From UHGV virus genome UHGV-0275691: DNA of 24,961 bases; one strand, 5' to 3'. The stretch comes from a virus. The notes under the pieces were generated by a model. It saw nothing but the letters and a program-made list of their open reading frames with translations. It did not search any database and had not been told where the DNA came from. Each line of letters begins with the position of its first letter. Position 1 is the stretch's first letter. The translations under genes were made by a program, and so were the position numbers. Shown here piece after piece: positions 1 through 16,313 of the stretch.

Positions 1-262
1 AGGCGGAGCTGCATATTGAAGTTTTCCTGCCTGCTCAGGTGCCGGATTCAGAGCTGGATTCGTGGATGGAGTCCCGGATTTATCCGGTGATGAGACAGAC
101 CCGCATCATCGTCGCGCCGGTAGTCATAGCCACTGGCCACCATACTGGTGATCAAATCTGACAGTGCCGGGACATCGAGAGCTGGATTCGTGGATGGAGT
201 CCCGGATTTATCCGGTGATGAGCGATGTCCCGGCACTGTCAGATTTGATCACCAGTATGGTG
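1..262. repeat. Rearranged block made only of U-gene sequence: 1-94 is the exact reverse complement of 390-483; 95-177 is an exact direct copy of 307-389; 178-262 is the exact reverse complement of 350-434
   Basis: Base-by-base comparison inside the window; all three segments match with zero mismatches. No V (major tail) gene follows U. Confidence 0.9.
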
Positions 263-658: not shown

Positions 659-1233
659 CGCTTTATTACCATTCTCAGTTGATGCTGCAGCGCATAGCCC
701 AGCTCTTTCGGAAGGCGTTCACGCCGTATCCGTTCAATATTCTGTTTAAACGCCGTGGTAAGCGGCACCGCCATCGGGATTTTCACCACATCAATGGGGT
801 AACGGTTTTTCCCGGCCACACGCTGCATGACATGCCACCGGCCATTTTTCAGTTGCTGAATAAACGCGCCGGGAATACGACGGTTTCCCACCACAAGCAC
901 GCTGCCGCCACCTTTCAGGGCTGAACGCTGCCCCTTTTTACGACGTCTGCGGCGGGAAAGGACAACCCGCGCGTTACCCAGCCTGATTACGGGCAAATCC
1001 CCCCGGTTAACCCTGATTCTGGCCTGCGGATTTTTGACCGTGGCCCTTTTCAGCCTGGCCCTTTCCTTTACCAGTTTCCGGCGTACCTTTGTCTCACGGG
1101 CAACCTGTGCCACCGACTGCGATATCGCGGATGAAGCAACGCGGTTAATGGCCATTGCGGCGGCACCGGGCACCGCCGTTCTGCTGATACGGCTGAGGTT
1201 TTCAACGGCCTGCTCAAGACCTTTTATGGCCAT
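655..1233 (-). CDS. Z: Minor tail protein Z (192 aa)
   Basis: Translation matches recalled lambda Z; synteny FII-Z-U. Confidence 0.95.
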   Translation of the reverse strand: MAIKGLEQAVENLSRISRTAVPGAAAMAINRVASSAISQSVAQVARETKVRRKLVKERARLKRATVKNPQARIRVNRGDLPVIRLGNARVVLSRRRRRKKGQRSALKGGGSVLVVGNRRIPGAFIQQLKNGRWHVMQRVAGKNRYPIDVVKIPMAVPLTTAFKQNIERIRRERLPKELGYALQHQLRMVIKR

Positions 1234-1244
1234 ACATCCCCCTT

Positions 1245-1598
1245 TCAGCGGCGACGGTTAACGGCAGGCGGTACGCCCCGCCCAAGCCAGAGATGACAGC
1301 TTCCGCCATCATCCGGCGAAACACGATCTATCCAGAAGTTTTCCTCACCGATGGTCAGCGTGTCTCCACGCCGCAGTTGCCGCACATCATCAGTCCGGAC
1401 AAACAGGGACGGGCTGGAGCCTTCAACGCGCACGCCCTGTCCGGCATAGCTGATATTTTCAGGGTCATCAAAAACACCACGTATCACAGCACCGGACTGC
1501 TCACCGGATGTCATGGTGGCTGACGTTCCCATGTACCCGCGTATCGTTTCATCGGCGCGGGCAATGGCAGCATCGAACAGGTTATCGAAATCAGCCAC
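1245..1598 (-). CDS. FII: Head-tail joining protein FII (117 aa)
   Basis: Translation matches recalled lambda FII over full length. Confidence 0.95.
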   Translation of the reverse strand: MADFDNLFDAAIARADETIRGYMGTSATMTSGEQSGAVIRGVFDDPENISYAGQGVRVEGSSPSLFVRTDDVRQLRRGDTLTIGEENFWIDRVSPDDGGSCHLWLGRGVPPAVNRRR

Positions 1599-1609
1599 AG
1601 CGCCTCCCG

Positions 1610-2005
1610 TTATTGCATTCTGGCCAGGCCGCGCTCTGTCATTTCGGCTGCCACACCGGCAGAGACACGAAACGCCGTTCCCGGCAGCACAAATGCCACA
1701 GGTTTATCCCGCGTGGCGTGAAGTGCATCGGTATGCAGCATCACCAGTGCCACAACCGTGACCAGAGCAGCCGTATCAGTCACGGTATCCGTCTGTGCTG
1801 ATACCACCTCATTTTCATGTCCGGTCAGCGCATTTTCCGGGCTGACAGACGTGTCCTGACCGGCTGCGTCATCCGTGTCATCAAGCTCCTCTTCCAGCTC
1901 TGCCACACGGAGCGCCAGTTCTTCTTTCGTCCCCGTCAGGCTGACATCACGGTTCAGTTGCTCACCCAGCGACCGGAGACGGGCAATCAGTTCATCTTTC
2001 GTCAT
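1610..2005 (-). CDS. FI: DNA packaging protein FI
   Basis: Matches lambda FI from MTKDELIARL; start taken at the internal ATG 2003-2005, preceded by GAGGAGGAG Shine-Dalgarno; the ORF-track start lies further upstream. Confidence 0.9.
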   Translation of the reverse strand: MTKDELIARLRSLGEQLNRDVSLTGTKEELALRVAELEEELDDTDDAAGQDTSVSPENALTGHENEVVSAQTDTVTDTAALVTVVALVMLHTDALHATRDKPVAFVLPGTAFRVSAGVAAEMTERGLARMQ

Positions 2006-2046
2006 GGACTCCTCCTCAGAGAGACAATGGCCCCGAAGGGCCATGA

Positions 2047-3072
2047 TTACGCCAGTTGAACGGACACGAACTCATCAGGATCAGCCAGCAGCATCAGCGG
2101 TGCTGACTGAATCATGGTGAACTCTCGCGCCGGATCGCCGGTGGTCACCCAGTTTTTCGGGTAACGGGCAGAGGCGTTAATGCCTTCGCGCTGTGCGTCC
2201 GCATCCTGAATGCAGCCATAGGTGCGCAGACCGCGTGCCTGAGTGTTCCCCAGCACCATCGTGTTGTCCGGCAGGAAGTTCTTTTTGACGCCGTTTTCCA
2301 CGTACTGTCCGGAATACACGACGATGGCCACATCGCCATACATCCCCTTATAGGACACCGCTTTACCCAGGTCTTTCACCGCTGTCTCCAGCTCGGAATG
2401 AGAGCCACGACGGGTATCCAGCTTCTCCTTGACGGCTTTGAAGGAACGGAACAGCGCCCAGCCTTTCGGATCAAACACGATGATATTCACCACTCCGCTG
2501 GCGTTCAGCGCGTAGGCTTCGATATCGTCGGTCGGGTCATACGTGGACTTGTCACGCTTGCTCCACTCCGTGCCGCCGGACTGTGTGATGTTGTTCGCCG
2601 CACTGCGGCCCATATCCACTTCAACCGGATCGAAGGCTTCACCGGTCATGGTGTATTTGCCCTTGAGCACGGCAGAAACGGCCTGCATCTCTTCGACCTG
2701 AGCAATGGCCAGCTCTTCGTCACGCATGTTCTGCATGATGATGCGACGGCGGCGGTAAGCCGGGTCAGCCAGATTCTGCGGATCTTCATCCGGCAGGCGA
2801 CGCAGGGTCATCTGCGGATTCACTTCATGCTTCGGCTTGACATATCCCGGCGTAAATTCAGAGGTGGAGCCGCCACGGGAACGGATAACCTCACCGGAAA
2901 CAATTGGCGAAACGTACAGCGCCATGTTTACCAGTCCAGGAATTTGTGAGAGATAGACTTTCTCCGTGGTGAAGGGATAGCTCTCACGGAAAAAGAGACG
3001 CAGAAACAGCGGATCAAACTTAAATTTCTGCTCATTTGCCGCCAGCAGCTGGGCGGTTGTGTACATCGACAT
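2047..3072 (-). CDS. E: Major capsid protein E (341 aa)
   Basis: Matches lambda E from MSMYTTAQLL; ORF-track start is 9 codons upstream of the lambda-equivalent start. Confidence 0.95.
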   Translation of the reverse strand: MSMYTTAQLLAANEQKFKFDPLFLRLFFRESYPFTTEKVYLSQIPGLVNMALYVSPIVSGEVIRSRGGSTSEFTPGYVKPKHEVNPQMTLRRLPDEDPQNLADPAYRRRRIIMQNMRDEELAIAQVEEMQAVSAVLKGKYTMTGEAFDPVEVDMGRSAANNITQSGGTEWSKRDKSTYDPTDDIEAYALNASGVVNIIVFDPKGWALFRSFKAVKEKLDTRRGSHSELETAVKDLGKAVSYKGMYGDVAIVVYSGQYVENGVKKNFLPDNTMVLGNTQARGLRTYGCIQDADAQREGINASARYPKNWVTTGDPAREFTMIQSAPLMLLADPDEFVSVQLA

Positions 3073-3127
3073 AAAAAAATCCCGTAAAAAAAGCCGCACA
3101 GGCGGCCTTTAGTGATGAAGGGTCAGG

Positions 3128-3460
3128 TTAAACGATGCTGATTGCCGTTCCGGCAAACGCGGTCCGTTTTTTCGTCTCGTCGCTGGCAGCCTCCGGCCAG
3201 AGCACATCCTCATAACGGAACGTGCCGGACTTGTAGAACGTCAGTGTGGTGCTGGTCTGGTCAGCAGCAACTGCAAGAATGCCAACGGCAGCACCGTCGG
3301 TGGTGCCATCCCACGCAACCAGCTTACGGGTGGAGGTGTCCAGCATCAGCGGGGTCATTGCAGGCGCTTTCGCACTCAACCCGCCGGGCGCGGTTGCGGT
3401 ATGAGCCGGGTCACTGTTGCCCAGCGGCTGGTAATGGGTAAAGGTTTCTTTGCTCGTCAT
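3128..3460 (-). CDS. D: Capsid decoration protein D (110 aa)
   Basis: Matches lambda D from [10 protein letters not shown]. Confidence 0.95.
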
Positions 3461-3469
3461 AAACATCCC

Positions 3470-3865
3470 TTACACTGGTGTGTTCAGCAAATCGTTAACG
3501 GCATCAGATGCCGGGTTACCTGCAGCCAGCGGTGCCGGTGCCCCCTGCATCAGACGATCCAGCGCAGTGTCACTGCGCGCCTGTGCACTCTGTGGTGCTG
3601 CGGCCAGAATACGGCGGGCCGTTTCCACGGTCATACCGGGGGTTTCGGCCAGCACGCATGCCTGTTCTTCGCGTCCGTGAGCCTCCTCACAGTTGAGGAT
3701 CCCCATAATGCGACTGTTTTCTGCCGCAACCGCTGCGGTGATCTGCGCGTTCACGTCCGGCTGCGCAGCGCTGGCGTTCTCGCCCTCCGTCGCTTGCACC
3801 ACGCCAGTAACGTCAGCCTGCGAAGCAGTGGCTGAAACAGTTGTTGATTGAGTCTCTTTGGTCAT
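3470..3865 (-). CDS. Nu3: Capsid scaffolding protein Nu3 (131 aa, in-frame C-terminal part of C)
   Basis: Internal ATG at 3863-3865 preceded by AGGAGGG; C-terminal C reading frame matches lambda; lies downstream of the C frameshift so it is intact. Confidence 0.7.
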   Translation of the reverse strand: MTKETQSTTVSATASQADVTGVVQATEGENASAAQPDVNAQITAAVAAENSRIMGILNCEEAHGREEQACVLAETPGMTVETARRILAAAPQSAQARSDTALDRLMQGAPAPLAAGNPASDAVNDLLNTPV

Positions 3866-4768
3866 TCGCCCTCCTGAGAGACGGGATTTACGTGCATCCA
3901 GTGCATCACGCATGACGGTGATCGCATCGGTACTGTTCACAAGTTCATCAGCCAGTCCGGCATCAATGGCCTCCTGACCGCTGTACACTGCAGCCTCGGT
4001 ATCCAGCACAGCCTGCACGGACAGGCCGGTATATGCCGACACCTTCTGTGCAAACATCCGGCGGGTTGCATCCATCCGGGACTGCAGTGTTTCCCGGACA
4101 TCATCCGGTAGATGGCTGTAGGGGTTGCCATCCACCTTATGGCTGCCGCTGTAAATCAGCGTGATTTCCACGCCCTGTTTCTCCAGCGCAGCACCGTAAT
4201 TACTGTGAGCCATCATGACGCCGATGGAGCCTGTCCGGGCGGTCTGCGTGACCAGACGCCGGGAGGCGGCGCTGGCAAGCAGCTGACCTGCACTGCAGTT
4301 CATGTCGTTGGCCAGCGCCCATACCGGTTTTATGTCTCGCACACGGGCGATGATGTCAGCACAGTCAAATGCTCCCGCCACCATCCCGCCCGGTGTGTCC
4401 ATATCCAGCAGAATGCCGTCCACCATCGGATCGCTGGCAGCCTGTTGCAGACGGCGATAATGCCGTTGTAACCGGTCATCCCCGAATACGGCTGCAGCGC
4501 CCGCGTCCGGCTGACCAGCGTGCCGGACACCGGCAGCACGGCGATGCCGTTCATGACCTGATAACTGCGGGCCTGTCGTGGTCCGTCATCATCAACGGAT
4601 AACGCCAGCGCCGCGGGTGCCTCTCCGGCAGTCAGGCTGTCGCCGGACACCGCATCCGTCAGGCGGCTGATCCCAAGCTGGCCTGCAAGCGCACAAAAGA
4701 AAACCCGCGCATAGGCGGGTTCAAGCATCAGCGGCTCATTAAAGGCCATACTGGCAATATGCGGGAGA

Positions 4769-4788
<20 letters not shown>
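3470..4788 (-). pseudogene. C: Prohead protease/scaffold protein C, disrupted by a 1-nt frameshift near 4450
   Basis: N-terminal 150 residues (ORF 4330-4923 from VTAELRNLPH, GTG start at 4786-4788) and C-terminal 318 residues (ORF 3470-4426) both match lambda C but sit in different frames; the window reads ATTATCGCCGTCTGCAA where I recall lambda having ATTATCGCCCGTCTGCAA. Confidence 0.75.
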
Positions 4789-8469
<3,681 letters not shown>

Positions 8470-8495
<26 letters not shown>

Positions 8496-9015
8496 TCAGC
8501 AACCCCGGTATCAGTTCATCCAGCGCGGCTGCTTTGTTCATGGCTTTGATGATATCCCGTTTCAGGAAATCAACATGTCGGTTTTCCAGTTCCGGAAAAC
8601 GCCGCTGCACCGACAGGGGGATCCCGTCGAGAATACTGGCAATTTCACCTGCGATCCGCGACAGCACGAAAGTACAGAATGCGGTTTCCACCACTTCAGC
8701 GGAGTCTCTGGCATTTTTCAGCTCCTGTGCGTCGGCCTGCGCACGCGTAAGTCGATGGCGTTCGTACTCAATAGTCCCTGGCTGGAGATCTGTCTCGCTG
8801 GCCTGCCGCAGTTCTTCAACTTCCCGGCGCAGCTTTTCGTTCTCAATTTCAGCATCCCTTTCGGCATACCATTTTATGACGGCGGCAGAATCATAAAGCA
8901 CCTCATTACCCTTCCCACCACCCCGCAGAACGGGCATTCCCTGCTCCTGCCAGTTCTGAATGGTACGGATACTCGCGCCGAAAATGTCAGCCAGCTGCTT
9001 TTTGTTGACTTCCAT
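8470..9015 (-). CDS. Nu1: Terminase small subunit Nu1 (181 aa)
   Basis: Full-length match to recalled lambda Nu1; cos lies immediately upstream. Confidence 0.97.
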
Positions 9016-9193
9016 TGTTCATTCCACGGACAAAAACAGAGAAAGGAAACGACAGAGGCCAAAAAGCTCGCTTTCAGCACCTGTCGTTTCCTTTCTTTTC
9101 AGAGGGTATTTTAAATAAAAACATTAAGTTATGACGAAGAAGAACGGAAACGCCTTAAACCGGAAAATTTTCATAAATAGCGAAAACCCGCGA

Positions 9194-9205
9194 GGTCGCC
9201 GCCCC
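9194..9205. other. cos: cosN cohesive-end site (AGGTCGCCGCCC, complement of lambda GGGCGGCGACCT); cosB expected on the Nu1 side at about 9016-9190
   Basis: Exact 12-nt lambda cohesive-end sequence, flanked by sequence resembling lambda left and right ends, directly upstream of Nu1. Confidence 0.85.
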
Positions 9206-9404
9206 GTAACCTGTCGGATCGCCGGAAAGGACCCGCAAAATGATAATAATTATCATCTACATGTCACAACGTGCATCTACGCCATCAAACCACGTCAAAT
9301 AATCAATTATGACGCAGGTATCGTATTAATTGATCTGCATCAACTTAACGTAAAAAAAACTTCAGACAATACAAATCAGCAACACAGAATACGGGACAAC
9401 CTCA

Positions 9405-9637
9405 TGTCAACGAAGAACAGAACCCGCAGAACAACAACCCGCAACATCCGCTTTCCTAACCAAATGATTGAACAAATTAACATCGCTCTTGTTCAAAAAG
9501 GGTCCGGGAATTTCTCAGCCTGGGTCATTGAAGCCTGCCGCCGGAGACTGTGCTCAGAAAAAAGAGTTTCGCCTGAAGCAAACAAAGAAAAGAGTGACAT
9601 TACTGAATTGCTCAGAAAACAGGTTAGACCAGATTGA
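9405..9637 (+). CDS. Small basic protein with a predicted ribbon-helix-helix-like fold (77 aa); cos-proximal ORF that I recall also being present at the lambda right end
   Basis: ORF with N-terminal Arg/Thr-rich stretch followed by a strand-helix-loop-helix pattern (IRFPNQMIEQINIALVQKGSGNFSAWVIEACRRRL); weak RBS; upstream part of the 168-aa track ORF crosses cosN so cannot be coding. Confidence 0.55.
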
Positions 9638-9694
9638 AGCAATCTAGATAATCGTGCAGACTACGCCCCCTCATATCACATGGAAGGTACTACA

Positions 9695-10105
9695 ATGGCT
9701 CAGGTTGCCATTTTTAAACAAATATTCGATAAAGTGCGAAATAATTTAAACTATCACTGGTTTTATTCTGAACTAAAACGTCACAATGTCTCACATTACA
9801 TTTACTATTTAGCCACAGAGAATATTCATCTTGTTCTTGAAAACGATAATACGGTTTTAATAAAAGGACAGGGTAAGGTTGTAAATGTAAGATTTTCAAA
9901 AAATAAATGCCTTATAGAAGCCACCTTAAAAGGATTCAAATCAGGAGAGTTATCATTTTACGAATACAGGAAAAATCTTGCTACAGCAGGGGTTTTCAGA
10001 TGGATTACAAATATCCACGAAAACAAAAGGTATTACTATACCTTTGATAATTCATTACTCTTTACTGAGAACATTCAGAACACTACACAAATATTTCCGC
10101 ACTAA
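9695..10105 (+). CDS. DUF1398-like (YbcV/YdfO-family) prophage protein, 136 aa
   Basis: ATG at 9695 with GAAGG RBS 8 nt upstream; translation resembles recalled E. coli YbcV-family proteins and the equivalent lambda right-end ORF; [13 protein letters not shown] motif. Confidence 0.7.
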
Positions 10106-10783
10106 ATCATAACGTCCGGTTTCTTCCGTGCCAGAACCGGACTCGCTGGCATGATGAAATATGTGTACCCGGTAACCCCGGTGTGCATCGTTTTTGATTA
10201 TTCCCGCACACTCGCGCAGAAGGAGTTCCCCGTCGGGCTACGGTCTCTGTTAATACGGGAACACGGCGACGATACAGCGCATGATGTGTCAGGCTTGAAT
10301 ACCTTTATCCTTTAAAAGGGATATCAGTTAAGTTATCCCGTGTAGGGTATAAGCCATTATCAAAGCCACTCTGTAGGGAATGGCTTTTGTGATGGCATCA
10401 CTTACTCTTTACGCTGCTATCCCACTCATCCCGGAATTTTGATGGGTTATTGAAACCTTCTGCTGACATAACAACTCCTTCAATGTTTGGCTGAAATTAG
10501 GATGTCTTTCCATCAGTCCGCCACCACAAAGAATCTTTTTTGCCATAAGGCAGGAGGTTCATCTTTCAGTGGCTGCCGGTGTTATTTCCCCACTTACTGG
10601 CTTGGGTTGTTTCGTGGTACTGCCGTTAACTGGTGGCGCACAGATTTAGTTAAATCCGTTCTCGCCTGAACTATCTTTTACATACCCGGATTGTGGGGAT
10701 GTAAATCACGGTTTCATTATCAAGCCCACCAGTAGATGGGCTTTGTAATGAAGAGTTGTTATGAAAATTGCTCTAAACAAGCA

Positions 10784-11272
10784 TTAATAGCCATCAGAAG
10801 TAATCGCTACAGATTTCAATCCCTCAATGTCATCCTTGGACAGGGCGAACCATTCACCGTGCTTTCTCTTTGCGGCAAATTTGCGATGAAGCATGTTTTC
10901 AGTTTCTCTTCCACCAGGGATCAGGCACTCAAGCTTCAAGCAGTCTGGTCCAGAGTTGCCAAGCGATTTGATGCGTTGTGGAATGTTGGATGAATACCCA
11001 ATTTTGGTTAGCCCAGTTTTCTTCGATGACAAAACGTATACCTGAGGAGGTTCTTTTCTCTGGTCTTCCATTACACGTCTCATTGTTGCCATAAGTCCGC
11101 CGTGCATCAGCATTTCAACAAAGAACGCTGACCGAACACCTGACGACTTAAGCATGCCAGAAAATTCACTTGCCAATTCCATTAACTCTGCGATGTTTTC
11201 AGGAACTTTTTGGCAGTTATCTTCCTTGTATAAGGAAATCATTCTTTGAAGCTTTTCTTCTAATTGGTTCAT
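10784..11272 (-). CDS. T5orf172 (GIY-YIG-like) domain protein with an uncharacterised helical N-terminal domain, 162 aa
   Basis: C-terminal region VYVLSS..GLTKIGYSSNIPQRIKSL...ENMLHRKFAAKRKHGEWFAL fits the T5orf172/GIY-YIG-like motif order (YxL, KIGxS, R, E, GEWF); ATG at 11270-11272; the track start at 11308 is a GTG. Confidence 0.65.
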   Translation of the reverse strand: MNQLEEKLQRMISLYKEDNCQKVPENIAELMELASEFSGMLKSSGVRSAFFVEMLMHGGLMATMRRVMEDQRKEPPQVYVLSSKKTGLTKIGYSSNIPQRIKSLGNSGPDCLKLECLIPGGRETENMLHRKFAAKRKHGEWFALSKDDIEGLKSVAITSDGY

Positions 11273-11421
11273 AGCGTCTTTACCTTTTAGAAAGTGAGCC
11301 TGTCTCACAGAAAAGCCGCCCCGAGATGGTCGCCACCATATACGGCAGTTCTCAGGCTCAACTTTCTGAAAGGCTCGGGTGATGTAATATGCGCGTGAGA
11401 TGCGCTGTGAAATTCAGATGT

Positions 11422-11445
11422 AAAAAAAGCCCCGCATCGCGAGGC
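11422..11445 (-). terminator. Rho-independent terminator downstream of Rz (minus-strand RNA GCCUCGC-GAU-GCGGGGC then U7)
   Basis: 7-bp stem with one G-U pair followed by a seven-residue U tract, 30 nt after the Rz stop. Confidence 0.7.
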
Positions 11446-11477
11446 TCATTAAATGGACTTTGTGATTTGCAAAAAAA

Positions 11478-11951
11478 TTATTTCAGGCATTGCGTCCTGA
11501 TGTATTCCTGCAGGTAGTTAACCTGCGCGGTTATCTTGTCGATTCCACTTCGGAGACGGTAATAATTGAGTTCAGCATCTGCTGTAAGTCTTGGGCTTTC
11601 TCCATCGCCCATGCCGCTGGCTCCGGTCGTTGACTTTGCACAGGTGGCGGCGACTTGCAGGCGCTTACGCCCAGCAGAAACATCAGCACGGAGACTTTCG
11701 ATAGTCGCGTTAGCATCAGCAAGCTCCTTTGTGTATCTTGCGTCGAGTTCTGCTACATCACGTTGACGCTTCCGCATGTCAGCGATGGTGGCGTTCGCCT
11801 TCTCCAGTTCACTGGCCTTGTTATCGCGCTGCTCTTTGTAGGCGATTGCGTTATCACGGTAATGATTAACAGCCCATGACAGGCAGACGATGATGCAGAT
11901 AACCAGAGCATAAATAATCGCGGCGACTCTGCTCACTGATCTATCCCCCAA
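11478..11951 (-). CDS. Rz: Inner-membrane spanin Rz (i-spanin)
   Basis: N-terminal half matches lambda Rz ([22 protein letters not shown]); position after R; embedded Rz1 frame. Confidence 0.9.
11531..11722 (-). CDS. Rz1: Outer-membrane lipoprotein spanin Rz1 (o-spanin), embedded in Rz in the +1 frame
   Basis: Embedded ORF with signal peptide, lipobox-like VSAC and a Pro-rich mature region (KSPPPVQ), typical of Rz1. Confidence 0.7.
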
Positions 11952-12466
11952 CAGGCTAATGCGCTTTCCTGGTCACGACGAATAACCTGTCCATAGCAGT
12001 TATTTGAACGTATGCGGCAATCGCGCCCACCATCTTTTATCCACCAGCGAATCGCCTCGCATGCACCTTTACGATCACCGGCATTCAGCCGCTTATAAAA
12101 CGTCGACGGGAAACACTTACCGGGGCCAATGTTATAGGGACAAAATGACGCGATACCCGCTTTCTGTGGTTCGGTCAGTGGCACTTTAATATTGCGCTCC
12201 ACCCATGCCAGCGCCTTATCCCGTTCAATGGCGTTAACCTGGTCGCATTTTTCCTTCGACAGTTTCATACCGGGAAAAACGGGTTTTCCATCCACCACCG
12301 TGGCACCCCGACAGATGGTCCAGATGCCGGAACCATCGCGGTATGCCGTTGTGTGGTTACCTTCTTTTTCATCCAGAAACTGGTCGAGAATATCAGGCGC
12401 AGGCGCACCGACGGCAATCAGTGCCAGAACGGCAGCCGACAGGCCGTATCTGATTTTTGCGTTCAT
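11933..12466 (-). CDS. R: Endolysin R, T4-type lysozyme with N-terminal signal-anchor-release (SAR) domain
   Basis: 177 aa; hydrophobic N-terminus ([13 protein letters not shown]) followed by an [17 protein letters not shown] catalytic region, similar to phage 21 / Stx-phage SAR endolysins. Confidence 0.92.
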
Positions 12467-12571
12467 GGATATTTATCAGGATTTATCGGTTTCTGAACCC
12501 TGGATATGTTTATCTGTCCCGGCCTGTTGAATCAGGCAAGGAATAGTTAAATACAATAGAGAGGATTGTTT

Positions 12572-12844
12572 ATGGACAATAGCACCATTTCTCTACAGGA
12601 GTTGCTCGACTGCATTTCCAGGCTTCGGGATGATGTAAATGCCCTTACTGTCGCATTTTCATATCTGGCATTCTCAATTCCCAAGGAACAAATGCAACCA
12701 ACACTGGCATCGCTCCAGCTTGAATCACTCAACCCCAAATGGTCCCAGCAACAACAAAATTCTTTCAAGTGGCTGGCGGTATTACTGGAAGAAAAATATG
12801 CTGGTGAAATTACCATTTCGGCGGAGTCTTCAGAGAACCAGTAA
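12572..12844 (+). CDS. Hypothetical acidic 90-aa protein encoded antisense to the lysis operon, between the YdfR-like gene and R
   Basis: ATG at 12572 with GAGAGGA Shine-Dalgarno 6 nt upstream; candidate sigma70 promoter TTGAAT-N15-TAAATA upstream; no similarity I can recognise. Confidence 0.45.
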   Translation: MDNSTISLQELLDCISRLRDDVNALTVAFSYLAFSIPKEQMQPTLASLQLESLNPKWSQQQQNSFKWLAVLLEEKYAGEITISAESSENQ

Positions 12845-13154
12845 TTCTTCCCGGTAGCTTTCCTTTGTAGGTTATCCACACATTCTGCGCCTCTAAAATT
12901 ATGGGGCGCTTTTCCGGCGACAGCTCATCCCCTTCACATAACCCGGCAGCAACATCCAGGAAGACCTGTCTGATGCTCCTTCTGGCTGCTGCCTCATAAA
13001 ACTCCAGCGCGGCACCTTCAACACGGTCCAGCGAGATGTCCAGGTCAAAAATTTCACCGTCAAAGCGTTTTTTGTCCCGTAACGCTAAAGTTACCGTAAC
13101 TTTATTCTCAAAATTGCGGATCCCTTTCACAATCAGTTCATAGTTTTGAGTCAT
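12810..13154 (-). CDS. Small ORF between holin and endolysin at the position of YdfR (DUF1327) in Qin-type prophages
   Basis: Starts 4 nt after the S stop; N-terminus MTQNYELIVKGIRNFENKVTVT resembles recalled YdfR-family N-termini; C-terminus diverges and overlaps the antisense ORF. Confidence 0.6.
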   Translation of the reverse strand: MTQNYELIVKGIRNFENKVTVTLALRDKKRFDGEIFDLDISLDRVEGAALEFYEAAARRSIRQVFLDVAAGLCEGDELSPEKRPIILEAQNVWITYKGKLPGRITGSLKTPPKW

Positions 13155-13158
13155 TGAA

Positions 13159-13374
13159 TTACTCTCCCCGTGCAGCCTTACGCTTGTCTTCTTTAATCTT
13201 GAAATAAAGGTTTGTCAGGTACGTCAGCAGGCCAAATACCAGGCTACCCAGCACTCCAATTGCCGCCCACTGTGAGGGCGTGACTTTATCTAGCAGCTGT
13301 AAAAACCAGTACCCGGCACTACCTGCTGAGGTGCCATAGGCGACACCCGTTGTTAACTTATCCATGGATTGCAT
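13159..13374 (-). CDS. S: Holin S, phage 21 pinholin type (71 aa) with dual-start motif M-Q-S-M
   Basis: Near-identical to recalled S21/EssD-type holins; GAGGTGGGG RBS; Met1 and Met4 give the holin/antiholin dual start. Confidence 0.93.
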
Positions 13375-13519: not shown

Positions 13520-13947
13520 AAGCTGTGTGACGAAGTAACCACTCTTAACAGCATAACCAATTTTTTACGTACGTAAACCACTAAATGATATTTGCGAGAA
13601 TGCTACCGAGTATTGAAAACACCACTACAAATACATAAGCAAATCTCAACAAATAACCAACAAATAATTTCCAGCGTTATTTTTAGCCAATTTAAATTGA
13701 ACCTTCAAATTATAGAGCACTTATAAATAACAGCCATTAATATAAATTGGCTAATAGATTTATTTTTATTCAGCCAAGAGCCATGAATAGGATTCGATAG
13801 AAAAAAGTTCAGATAAAAATAGAGATCTACTTCACAAATTAAACGAGAAACCAAAACTTACATCTTGAAATAATCACATTGATTAGATGAATATTTATCG
13901 CGCAGTGACATCATTTTTTAATAATAGTTCAAAAAAAAGGGCTCACG

Positions 13948-15030
13948 ATGAAAAAATTAACAGTGGCAATTTCTGCTGTAGCTGCATCAGTACTGATGGC
14001 GATGTCTGCTCAGGCAGCTGAAATTTATAATAAAGACAGTAACAAGCTGGATCTGTACGGGAAAGTTAATGCTAAGCACTACTTCTCCTCTAATGATGCA
14101 GATGATGGTGATACTACTTATGCCCGTCTTGGCTTCAAAGGTGAAACCCAAATCAACGATCAACTGACTGGTTTCGGTCAGTGGGAATATGAATTCAAAG
14201 GCAACCGCGCTGAATCTCAAGGTTCTTCCAAAGACAAAACCCGTCTTGCATTTGCAGGCCTGAAATTTGGTGATTACGGCTCAATCGATTACGGCCGTAA
14301 CTACGGTGTAGCATACGACATCGGTGCGTGGACTGACGTCCTGCCAGAATTCGGTGGTGATACCTGGACCCAAACAGATGTGTTCATGACTGGTCGCACT
14401 ACTGGTGTTGCAACTTATCGTAACAACGACTTCTTTGGTCTGGTCGATGGCCTGAACTTTGCTGCTCAGTATCAGGGTAAAAATGACCGCACTGACGTAA
14501 CTGAAGCCAATGGTGATGGTTTCGGTTTCTCCACTACTTATGAGTATGAAGGATTCGGCGTGGGTGCAACCTATGCTAAATCAGATCGCACTGACGGTCA
14601 GGTCGCCTATGGTAAGAGCAAATTCAATGCCTCCGGCAAAAATGCGGAAGTATGGGCTGCAGGCCTGAAATATGATGCGAACAATATCTATCTGGCTACC
14701 ACATATTCTGAAACTCAGAATATGACCGTTTTTGGTAATAACCATATTGCAAACAAAGCACAAAACTTTGAAGCAGTAGCACAATATCAGTTTGACTTCG
14801 GTCTGCGCCCATCTGTTGCTTACCTTCAGTCAAAAGGTAAAGACCTTGGTGTTCATGGTGACCGAGACTTAGTCAAGTATGTCGATGTCGGTGCTACTTA
14901 CTACTTTAATAAAAACATGTCCACTTTTGTTGATTACAAAATCAACTTAATTGACGATAGTAAGTTTACCAAAACAGCTGGTATTGATACTGATGACATC
15001 GTTGCTGTAGGTCTGGTTTACCAGTTCTAA
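13948..15030 (+). CDS. nmpC: Phage-encoded OmpC/OmpF-family general porin (NmpC/Lc-like), 360 aa
   Basis: Signal peptide ending AQA/AE, conserved porin N-terminus ([17 protein letters not shown]) and C-terminal YQF; located between Q and S on the strand opposite the late genes, as for nmpC in DLP12 and lc in PA-2. Confidence 0.93.
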
Positions 15031-15829: not shown

Positions 15830-16188
15830 TCATTCCCCATTTCGGTGATGGTCAGTTCCAGCCTCCCACCTTTGGTAACAGGCATCTTCACAACGCGGTA
15901 ATCAACGACCTGAGCATCATCCAGCCAGAAACCTGCTTTAGTGAGTGCGTCAAAAGCGGCTTTTTGCAGATTATCCAGGTCACGGCGACGGCGATCCGGC
16001 ATGTGGCACTCAATGCGGATTTTCACAGGCATAGCCAGGCCGATATCCAGCATTGCGTTTTTAATGATTCGGGCGACGTTATCGCGGTATGCCTGCCCCT
16101 CTGCGCTGACGTGCGTGCGCCCGCGATTATGGCGGTAATAGCGATTATTGCTCGGAGGCCAGGGTAATGTGATGCTGTAGGTATTCAC
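15826..16188 (-). CDS. rusA: Holliday junction resolvase RusA (120 aa)
   Basis: Full-length match to recalled E. coli RusA; GTG start codon. Confidence 0.95.
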
Positions 16189-16313
16189 GCCTTAATAACC
16201 CCCTCTTTCAGCCAGATAACCTGTGTTCTCGCCATACCTTCCAGCGCGCATTCTTTTGCATATGCAGCATCGACTTGCTTGGCATGCCCTTTACCGGCAA
16301 TCTTCTGTATGCG
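16185..16313 (-). pseudogene. ybcO: Remnant of a ybcO-like (DUF1364) gene: only the C-terminal part is present, with no start codon
   Basis: Open frame ending ...[29 protein letters not shown] matches the recalled YbcO C-terminus; an in-frame stop lies 42 codons upstream and there is no room for the N-terminal two-thirds. Confidence 0.5.

What the first reader, a model, noticed from the sequence alone, without database searches (positions are those of the whole stretch)
4440..4465. One-nucleotide frameshift in head gene C (prohead protease)
The N-terminal 150 residues and C-terminal 318 residues of C both match lambda C but are in different frames. The window reads ATTATCGCCGTCTGCAA where I recall lambda having ATTATCGCCCGTCTGCAA (IIARLQ), that is, one C is missing from a short C run. 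The nested Nu3 scaffold frame downstream is intact. A real frameshift would prevent capsid maturation, and together with the missing tail genes would mark the prophage as defective; the alternative is a homopolymer sequencing error.
Basis: partly seen in the sequence, partly recalled or inferred. Interest (0 to 1): 0.5.

Follow-up and report, generated by a model that had tools for sequence, protein, structure and literature searches.

The report
Real frameshift in prophage head protease
A lambda-like prophage of E. coli has lost one base in its capsid-maturation protease gene; the loss is a genuine mutation inherited by many isolates, not a sequencing error, and is ordinary prophage decay that RefSeq already annotates as a pseudogene.

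Summary
Gene C, the S49 prohead protease, runs on the minus strand from GTG 4788 to the stop at 3470. It reads ATCGCCGTCTG where lambda, phage 2H10 and E. coli C9 read ATCGCCCGTCTG. One C is missing from a CCC run (the remaining CC is window 4453-4454, codon 113). Adding it back gives a 439-aa protein identical to the intact WP_000123271.1.

It is not a sequencing error:
- The complete genome of E. coli 3359 has the same deletion, and PGAP marks the gene "frameshifted".
- The exact 152-aa shifted product is on record on 121 contigs (NCBI including KTE103, ENA metagenomes, Logan).
- Six independently assembled metagenome or sequencing-run loci that I read carry it. Five differ from the window by 5-16 SNPs per 11.6-14.5 kb; the sixth sits on a more divergent mosaic background.

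No deposited phage genome (0 of 77) and no IMG/VR contig carries it, whereas at least 120 IMG/VR contigs carry the intact sequence. The shift splits the protease fold and puts Ser166 and Lys218 out of frame. Nu3 and the other head genes are intact.

The "missing tail genes" are an effect of the window's end: all relatives go on into V-G-T-H-M-L-K, and window 1-262 is a scrambled fold-back of gene U fragments.

Verdict: an ordinary, already annotated inactivating mutation. Interest is low.

The parts
3470..4788 (-). Gene C (lambda gpC homologue, S49 prohead protease), a pseudogene through a 1-nt deletion; 1319 nt
   Evidence: GTG start as in lambda and PGAP. The same stretch in E. coli 3359 is annotated 'S49 family peptidase, frameshifted'. 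The repaired product matches Pfam PF01343 at E = 7e-44.
4453..4454 (-). Site of the deletion: a CC run that is CCC in intact relatives (codon 113, GCC-CGT has become GCC-GT)
   Evidence: Alignment A1 with lambda, 2H10 and E. coli C9 (intact) against the window, 3359 and L002-L006 (deleted); coordinates.
4330..4788 (-). Upstream reading frame: a 152-aa product, 112 native gpC residues plus 40 out-of-frame residues, stop TAA at 4332-4330
   Evidence: The exact product is on record on 121 contigs, including EOW17982.1 of E. coli KTE103. It has no Pfam match.
3470..4452 (-). Downstream native frame of C (codons 113-439). The first ATG is at 4426 (Met122, 318-aa ORF); gene callers use the ATG at 4384 (Met136, 304 aa)
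   Evidence: The 304-aa product is on 105 contigs, including EOW17983.1. Its PF01343 match is at E = 4e-44.
4292..4294 (-). Codon for Ser166, the predicted nucleophile, now out of frame with the start of C
   Evidence: It aligns with the nucleophile serine of B. subtilis SppA (3RST/4KWB). The residue numbering of SppA is from my own knowledge.
4136..4138 (-). Codon for Lys218, the predicted general base, also downstream of the shift
   Evidence: It aligns with the position that is Ala in 3RST (the K199A mutant, from my own knowledge).
3470..4075 (-). Nested scaffold gene Nu3 (201 aa), in the downstream frame and intact
   Evidence: Lambda's nu3 is annotated from C codon 239. The corresponding ATG at 4075-4073 and an open frame to 3470 are seen.
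4769..6370 (-). Portal gene B (533 aa), intact, overlapping the start of C
3128..3460 (-). Head decoration gene D (110 aa), intact

Best explanation
This is a genuine, vertically inherited one-base deletion (CCC to CC at codon 113) in gene C of a lambda-like prophage that sits at the argU/DLP12 site of E. coli.

Shown: translation from the normal GTG start reads 112 native residues and 40 nonsense residues, then stops. The S49/ClpP-like protease fold corresponds to gpC residues about 81-298, so it is cut after its first strand and helix. The Ser166/Lys218 dyad is no longer joined to the N-terminus. Nu3, with its own internal start downstream, and all the other head genes in the window remain intact.

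Inferred: on induction the prophage can still make portal, scaffold and capsid protein and can lyse the cell. It cannot process the prohead (removal of scaffold, trimming of portal), so it yields no infectious particles unless another phage supplies gpC or a +1 revertant arises.

This is an early step of prophage decay. It is not a recoding signal.
For: - Deletion against intact relatives.
- One added C restores a protein identical to WP_000123271.1, which is seen on at least 1000 contigs.
- Independent carriers: the E. coli 3359 complete genome, annotated 'frameshifted'; five contigs from ENA metagenomes and Logan that differ from the window by 5-16 SNPs; a sixth contig on a mosaic background.
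- The exact shifted 152-aa product is on 121 contigs in 243 blocks. The matching 304-aa downstream product is on 105 contigs, with neighbouring accession numbers in KTE103.
- Over 11.6 kb the seven carriers show 26 variable sites and no other indel.
- Absent from deposited phage genomes: 0 of 77 phage records. 0 IMG/VR contigs carry the deleted sequence, against at least 120 with the intact 40-mer.
- The fold is split: the SppA alignment covers gpC 81-298, and the Ser and Lys lie downstream of codon 113; the N-terminal fragment has no Pfam hit.
- C is listed as essential in lambda (PMC10695390, Table 1). Gene C was originally defined by conditional-lethal sus mutants (established knowledge).
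Against: - I could not look at raw reads for the window's own source.
- Only 1 of 3021 complete E. coli genomes that hold this stretch carries the deletion, so it is a rare allele.
- No experiment shows that this prophage fails to produce phage.
- Weak internal initiation at Met122 or Met136 might give an N-terminally truncated protease; I judge it inactive only from the fold alignment.
- The CRISPRi essentiality data for C can be affected by polarity on downstream genes.
Confidence: 0.92

Rival explanations
1. A homopolymer sequencing or assembly error: the true sequence has CCC and the gene is intact.
For: The lesion is a single-base loss in a short homopolymer. Only one of 3021 complete genomes with this region shows it. 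One extra C restores a very common intact protein.
Against: The identical deletion is present in at least eight separately assembled sequences: the window, 3359, L002-L006 and L011. They come from different projects and differ by SNPs and IS content. The exact shifted protein is recorded on 121 contigs from NCBI, ENA and Logan. A three-base run is not a typical site of systematic error, and thousands of other assemblies read CCC here.
Confidence: 0.02
2. The frameshift is bypassed, either by programmed -1 ribosomal frameshifting or transcriptional slippage at the site, or by the two fragments reassembling, so that functional protease is still made.
For: A -1 slip on GCC would recreate exactly A-R-L-Q. 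The downstream ORF keeps the whole Pfam S49 match and both catalytic residues. All other genes of the prophage remain intact in all carriers.
Against: There is no X XXY YYZ heptamer in the zero frame between the start and the stop of the shifted ORF, and no homopolymer of 6 or more anywhere in C. The two-frame arrangement is absent from all 77 related phage genomes and from IMG/VR, so it is not a conserved recoding site. Met122 and Met136 lie upstream of the shifted ORF's stop and lack a clear Shine-Dalgarno sequence, so coupled re-initiation is not available. Any such product would lack residues 81-121 or 81-135 of the fold.
Confidence: 0.03
3. The site is a mutational hotspot or a phase-variable run, and the carriers acquired the deletion independently.
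For: One carrier (L011) has the deletion on a clearly more divergent background: 98.5% identity over 11 kb, with lambda-type alleles in the Nu3 part.
Against: The other seven carriers share one haplotype (at least 99.89% identical). In L011 the roughly 850 bases around the deletion are identical to the window and the differences begin at 3906. This fits recombination, which is common among lambdoid prophages, or a low-coverage chimeric contig (coverage 2.75). A run of three C is too short for appreciable slippage. Only 1 of 3021 complete genomes has the deletion.
Confidence: 0.03

Closest known systems
Bacteriophage lambda gene C (gpC, S49-family prohead protease) with nested Nu3
   Same: Same position between portal B and decoration D. 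Same GTG start and same length when repaired (439 aa), 97.5% identical protein (428 of 439). Same nested Nu3 frame. PF01343 match and a Ser/Lys dyad that aligns with SppA.
   Different: One C is missing at codon 113, so the gene is split into a 152-aa and a 304/318-aa ORF and cannot encode gpC.
RefSeq pseudogene M5T33_RS07135 of E. coli strain 3359 (NZ_CP103739.1), 'S49 family peptidase, frameshifted', and the split ORFs EOW17982.1/EOW17983.1 of E. coli KTE103
   Same: The same deletion, in a prophage at least 99.9% identical to the window over the matching stretches (21 kb).
   Different: The 3359 prophage also carries IS1 (inside the porin gene) and ISEc23 insertions that the window lacks, and it differs by 7 SNPs. 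The window therefore comes from another isolate of the same prophage lineage.
Lambda C sus (amber) mutants, the classical conditional-lethal head mutants
   Same: Loss of gpC with Nu3 and the other head proteins retained. The expected outcome is unprocessed, non-productive proheads (established knowledge; C is listed as essential in PMC10695390).
   Different: Here the lesion is a frameshift fixed in a natural prophage lineage, not a suppressible laboratory nonsense mutation. The phenotype has not been tested.
Cryptic prophage DLP12 of E. coli K-12, at the same argU attachment site
   Same: In strain 3359 the prophage lies between tRNA-Arg/intD and appY/ompT. It carries quuD, essD, a porin moron and nohD-type genes, as DLP12 does.
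   Different: DLP12 has lost its head and tail genes altogether (own knowledge). This prophage is nearly complete and shows only an early lesion.

Membership tests
Peptidase S49 / lambda gpC prohead protease | Sequence match to Pfam PF01343 above the gathering score | tested here: met
   Repaired protein: 149.9 bits against a cutoff of 24.9. Downstream ORF: 150.6 bits.
Peptidase S49 / lambda gpC prohead protease | Ser/Lys catalytic dyad in the positions of SppA | tested here: met
   gpC Ser166 and Lys218 align with the nucleophile Ser and with the mutated Lys (K199A) of B. subtilis SppA 3RST. The SppA numbering is from my own knowledge.
Peptidase S49 / lambda gpC prohead protease | Gene order portal - protease (with nested scaffold) - decoration - major capsid | tested here: met
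   B, C/Nu3, D and E in lambda order on the minus strand.
Peptidase S49 / lambda gpC prohead protease | One uninterrupted reading frame that joins the N-terminal part of the fold to the catalytic residues | tested here: not met
   The gene is 1319 nt long, with a frame change at codon 113 and a stop 40 codons later. It is a pseudogene of this family, not a functional member.
Programmed -1 ribosomal frameshift site (as in lambda G/GT) | Slippery heptamer X XXY YYZ in the zero frame at the shift site | tested here: not met
   The only heptamer of that form in the upstream ORF (GGGTTTT, gene index 82) is in the wrong frame and 250 nt upstream of the site.
Programmed -1 ribosomal frameshift site (as in lambda G/GT) | Two-frame arrangement conserved among related functional phages | tested here: not met
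   0 of 77 phage records and 0 IMG/VR contigs have the deleted sequence; at least 120 IMG/VR contigs have the intact one.
Sequencing or assembly artefact | Confined to one assembly or one technology and not reproduced in independent data | tested here: not met
   Reproduced in 3359, L002-L006 and L011, and on 121 contigs of the protein collection.
Sequencing or assembly artefact | Raw reads disagree with the consensus | not testable with these tools
   There is no access to reads.

The most novel reading that the evidence does not exclude
The frameshifted allele may be more than passing decay. It could be a long-lived, 'locked-in' state of a resident prophage of an E. coli lineage: every other gene stays intact, the allele turns up on more than one recombinant background (L011), and it might be kept because a prophage that cannot make virions still gives the host immunity, exclusion (sieB), a porin and other morons. 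Alternatively, the two gpC fragments might still provide protease activity.
Probability: 0.05. Interest if true: 0.3.

Novelty: already known. Interest (0 to 1): 0.08.

Why it matters
The main value is for annotation. This C gene should be called a true pseudogene and should not be "corrected" as an error. The prophage should not be scored as intact by prophage-prediction tools, even though its gene set looks complete. The window should not be read as lacking tail genes. The deletion is also a convenient marker for a prophage lineage at the argU site. It tells us nothing new about head assembly.

Tried and rejected
- Sequencing error: rejected because many independent carriers exist.
- Programmed frameshift or transcriptional slippage: rejected. 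There is no in-frame slippery heptamer and no long homopolymer, and the arrangement is not conserved in phages.
- Missing tail genes: rejected. Relatives continue into V through K or beyond.
- Relaxed selection after the lesion: among the carriers there are no SNPs inside C, and the window's four private SNPs in W, B and E are all synonymous. The numbers are too small to conclude anything.
- Source of the window and of its scrambled left end: not found. The junction 35-mer is absent from metagenome contigs and genome contigs. The 62-aa ORF across the scrambled region is not on record.
- Deleted 39-mer in species-representative genomes: no hit.
- Medina et al. 2010 (gpC is the viral protease): not held in the paper library. 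A further literature search gave nothing useful. The catalytic assignment therefore rests on the SppA alignment.

Full report
**What is in the window.** The window is the left and central part of a lambda-like prophage, with its late genes on the minus strand. From right to left it holds exo (partial), bet, gam, kil, cIII, sieB, N, cI, cro, cII, O, P, ren, the nin region, rusA, quuD, a porin moron, the lysis genes, a GIY-YIG ORF, nu1, A, W, B, C/Nu3, D, E, FI, FII, Z and U (annotation transferred from E. coli 3359). In strain 3359 the same prophage lies between tRNA-Arg/intD and appY/ompT. That is the attachment site of the K-12 cryptic prophage DLP12.

**The observation.** Gene C starts at GTG 4788, the same GTG as in lambda, and ends at 3470.
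- The minus strand reads TACAACGGCATTATCGCCGTCTGCAACAGG.
- Lambda NC_001416, phage 2H10 (99.2% identical over the gene) and E. coli C9 read ATTATCGCCCGTCTGCAA at this place.
- One C of a CCC run is therefore missing. The remaining CC is at 4453-4454, at codon 113.
- The upstream frame gives 112 native residues plus 40 out-of-frame residues and stops at 4330. This is a 152-aa product.
- The native frame continues from codon 113 to the normal stop, and its first ATG is Met122 (the 318-aa ORF).
- Putting one C back gives 439 aa with no difference from WP_000123271.1 of E. coli C9 and 11 differences from lambda gpC.
Its figure of "150 N-terminal residues matching lambda" should be 112.

**Real mutation or error.**
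- Among complete E. coli genomes, 3021 hold this 67-nt stretch and only one, strain 3359 (NZ_CP103739.1), matches it exactly. All others carry the extra base. PGAP annotates that gene as "S49 family peptidase, frameshifted".
- The window is not strain 3359. It lacks the IS1 and ISEc23 insertions of that genome and differs from it by 7 SNPs over the matching stretches (21 kb).
- The exact 152-aa shifted product is in the protein collection on 121 contigs (243 index blocks) from NCBI, ENA and Logan, including EOW17982.1 of E. coli KTE103. The matching 304-aa downstream product is on 105 contigs, including the neighbouring accession EOW17983.1.
- Five contigs fetched from four ENA metagenome assemblies and one Logan run all show the deletion at the DNA level. 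They differ from the window by 5-16 SNPs over 11.6-14.5 kb.
- Over 11.6 kb the seven carriers have 26 variable sites, no other indel, and none of the variable sites lies inside C.
- A further metagenome contig (L011, ERZ773248) carries the deletion on a more divergent, mosaic background. It is 98.5% identical to the window over 11 kb, identical for about 850 bases around the site, and has lambda-type alleles in the Nu3 part. This fits recombination among lambdoid prophages, or a low-coverage chimeric contig.
- An error would not recur identically in separately assembled isolates that otherwise differ. I conclude that the deletion is real and inherited.

**Consequence (partly shown, partly inferred).**
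- The repaired protein matches Pfam Peptidase_S49 (E = 7e-44). Residues 81-298 align with B. subtilis SppA structures 3RST and 4KWB.
- gpC Ser166 aligns with the SppA nucleophile. Lys218 aligns with the position that is Ala in the K199A crystal form (the SppA numbering is from my own knowledge).
- The shift at codon 113 separates the first strand and helix of the fold (81-112) from the rest, and takes both catalytic residues out of frame with the start codon.
- The 152-aa fragment has no Pfam match.
- Rescue by recoding is unlikely. There is no X XXY YYZ heptamer in frame and no homopolymer of six or more in C. None of 77 related phage genomes and no IMG/VR contig has the deleted sequence, whereas at least 120 IMG/VR contigs have the intact 40-mer.
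- Internal initiation at Met122 or Met136 has no clear Shine-Dalgarno sequence. It cannot be coupled to termination, because the shifted ORF stops further downstream. Any such product would lack part of the fold.
- Nu3 (window 4075-3470; lambda annotation) and B, D, E, FI, FII, Z and U are full length.
- C is listed as essential in lambda (PMC10695390, Table 1). It is described as the protease that acts with Nu3 and the portal in prohead formation (PMC3224144).
- My inference is that induction would give lysis but no infectious particles, unless gpC is supplied in trans or a +1 revertant arises. Strain 3359 has only one copy of this C sequence.

**The tail genes.** In strain 3359 and in every metagenome locus, U is followed by V, G, T, H, M, L, K and, where the contig allows, I, J, lom and stf.

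The window ends just after U. Its first 262 bases are three exact fragments of gene U in alternating orientation:
- window 1-94 is U sense (L001 24118-24211);
- window 95-177 is antisense (L001 24294-24212);
- window 178-262 is U sense again (L001 24167-24251).

These are joined directly to the U stop codon at 263. This looks like a fold-back artefact at a contig end, but I could not test that. The junction is absent from the two DNA collections I could scan, and the ORF across it is not on record. The window therefore gives no evidence for loss of tail genes.

**Comparison with what is known, and novelty.** This is a pseudogene of the lambda gpC/S49 prohead protease family. It meets the sequence, catalytic-residue and synteny criteria and fails the criterion of an uninterrupted frame. 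It is not a programmed frameshift. The very same lesion is already annotated in RefSeq (M5T33_RS07135) and was deposited as two ORFs in KTE103. Single inactivating mutations in otherwise complete prophages are a well-known early stage of prophage decay.

**Verdict.** The "real frameshift" reading is supported, the "sequencing error" reading is rejected, and the "missing tail genes" reading is not supported. Interest is low (0.08) and the finding is already known.

Noticed in passing
window 1-262: The left end of the window is made of three exact fragments of gene U (94, 83 and 85 bases) in alternating orientation, joined directly to the U stop codon. All related loci continue normally into gene V. 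It is probably a fold-back assembly artefact at a contig end.
   Followed up: partly
window 13561-13578 and 14654-14663 (against L001 6646-7343 and 8531-10947): The otherwise near-identical prophage of E. coli 3359 carries an IS1 inside the porin gene and an ISEc23 (IS66 family) between the porin and the lysis genes. It also has IS100 next to int and IS5 at the right end. The window has neither IS1 nor ISEc23, so its porin ORF (13948-15030, +, 360 aa) is intact.
   Followed up: partly
L011 (ERZ773248 NODE_1670), aligned to window 857-13315: The same one-base deletion occurs on a more divergent, mosaic prophage background. Identity is 98.5% over 11 kb, with lambda-type D329/P332 alleles in the Nu3 part and a highly divergent patch at window 9500-10000. 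This suggests that recombination has moved the allele or its flanks, or that the low-coverage contig is chimeric.
   Followed up: partly
window about 16185-16274 (-): A remnant of a DUF1364 gene lacking its N-terminus lies in the nin region (PGAP annotation of the same sequence in strain 3359). It marks a small deletion in a non-essential region.
   Followed up: no
window 10784-11272 (-): A 162-aa GIY-YIG / T5orf172 nuclease-like ORF sits between the lysis genes and nu1. It could be a homing-endonuclease-type moron.
   Followed up: no
window 9345-9644 (L003) and 5447-5456 (L006): SNPs among the carriers of the deletion are clustered in short patches rather than spread evenly. This suggests small recombination tracts from other lambdoid prophages.
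   Followed up: no
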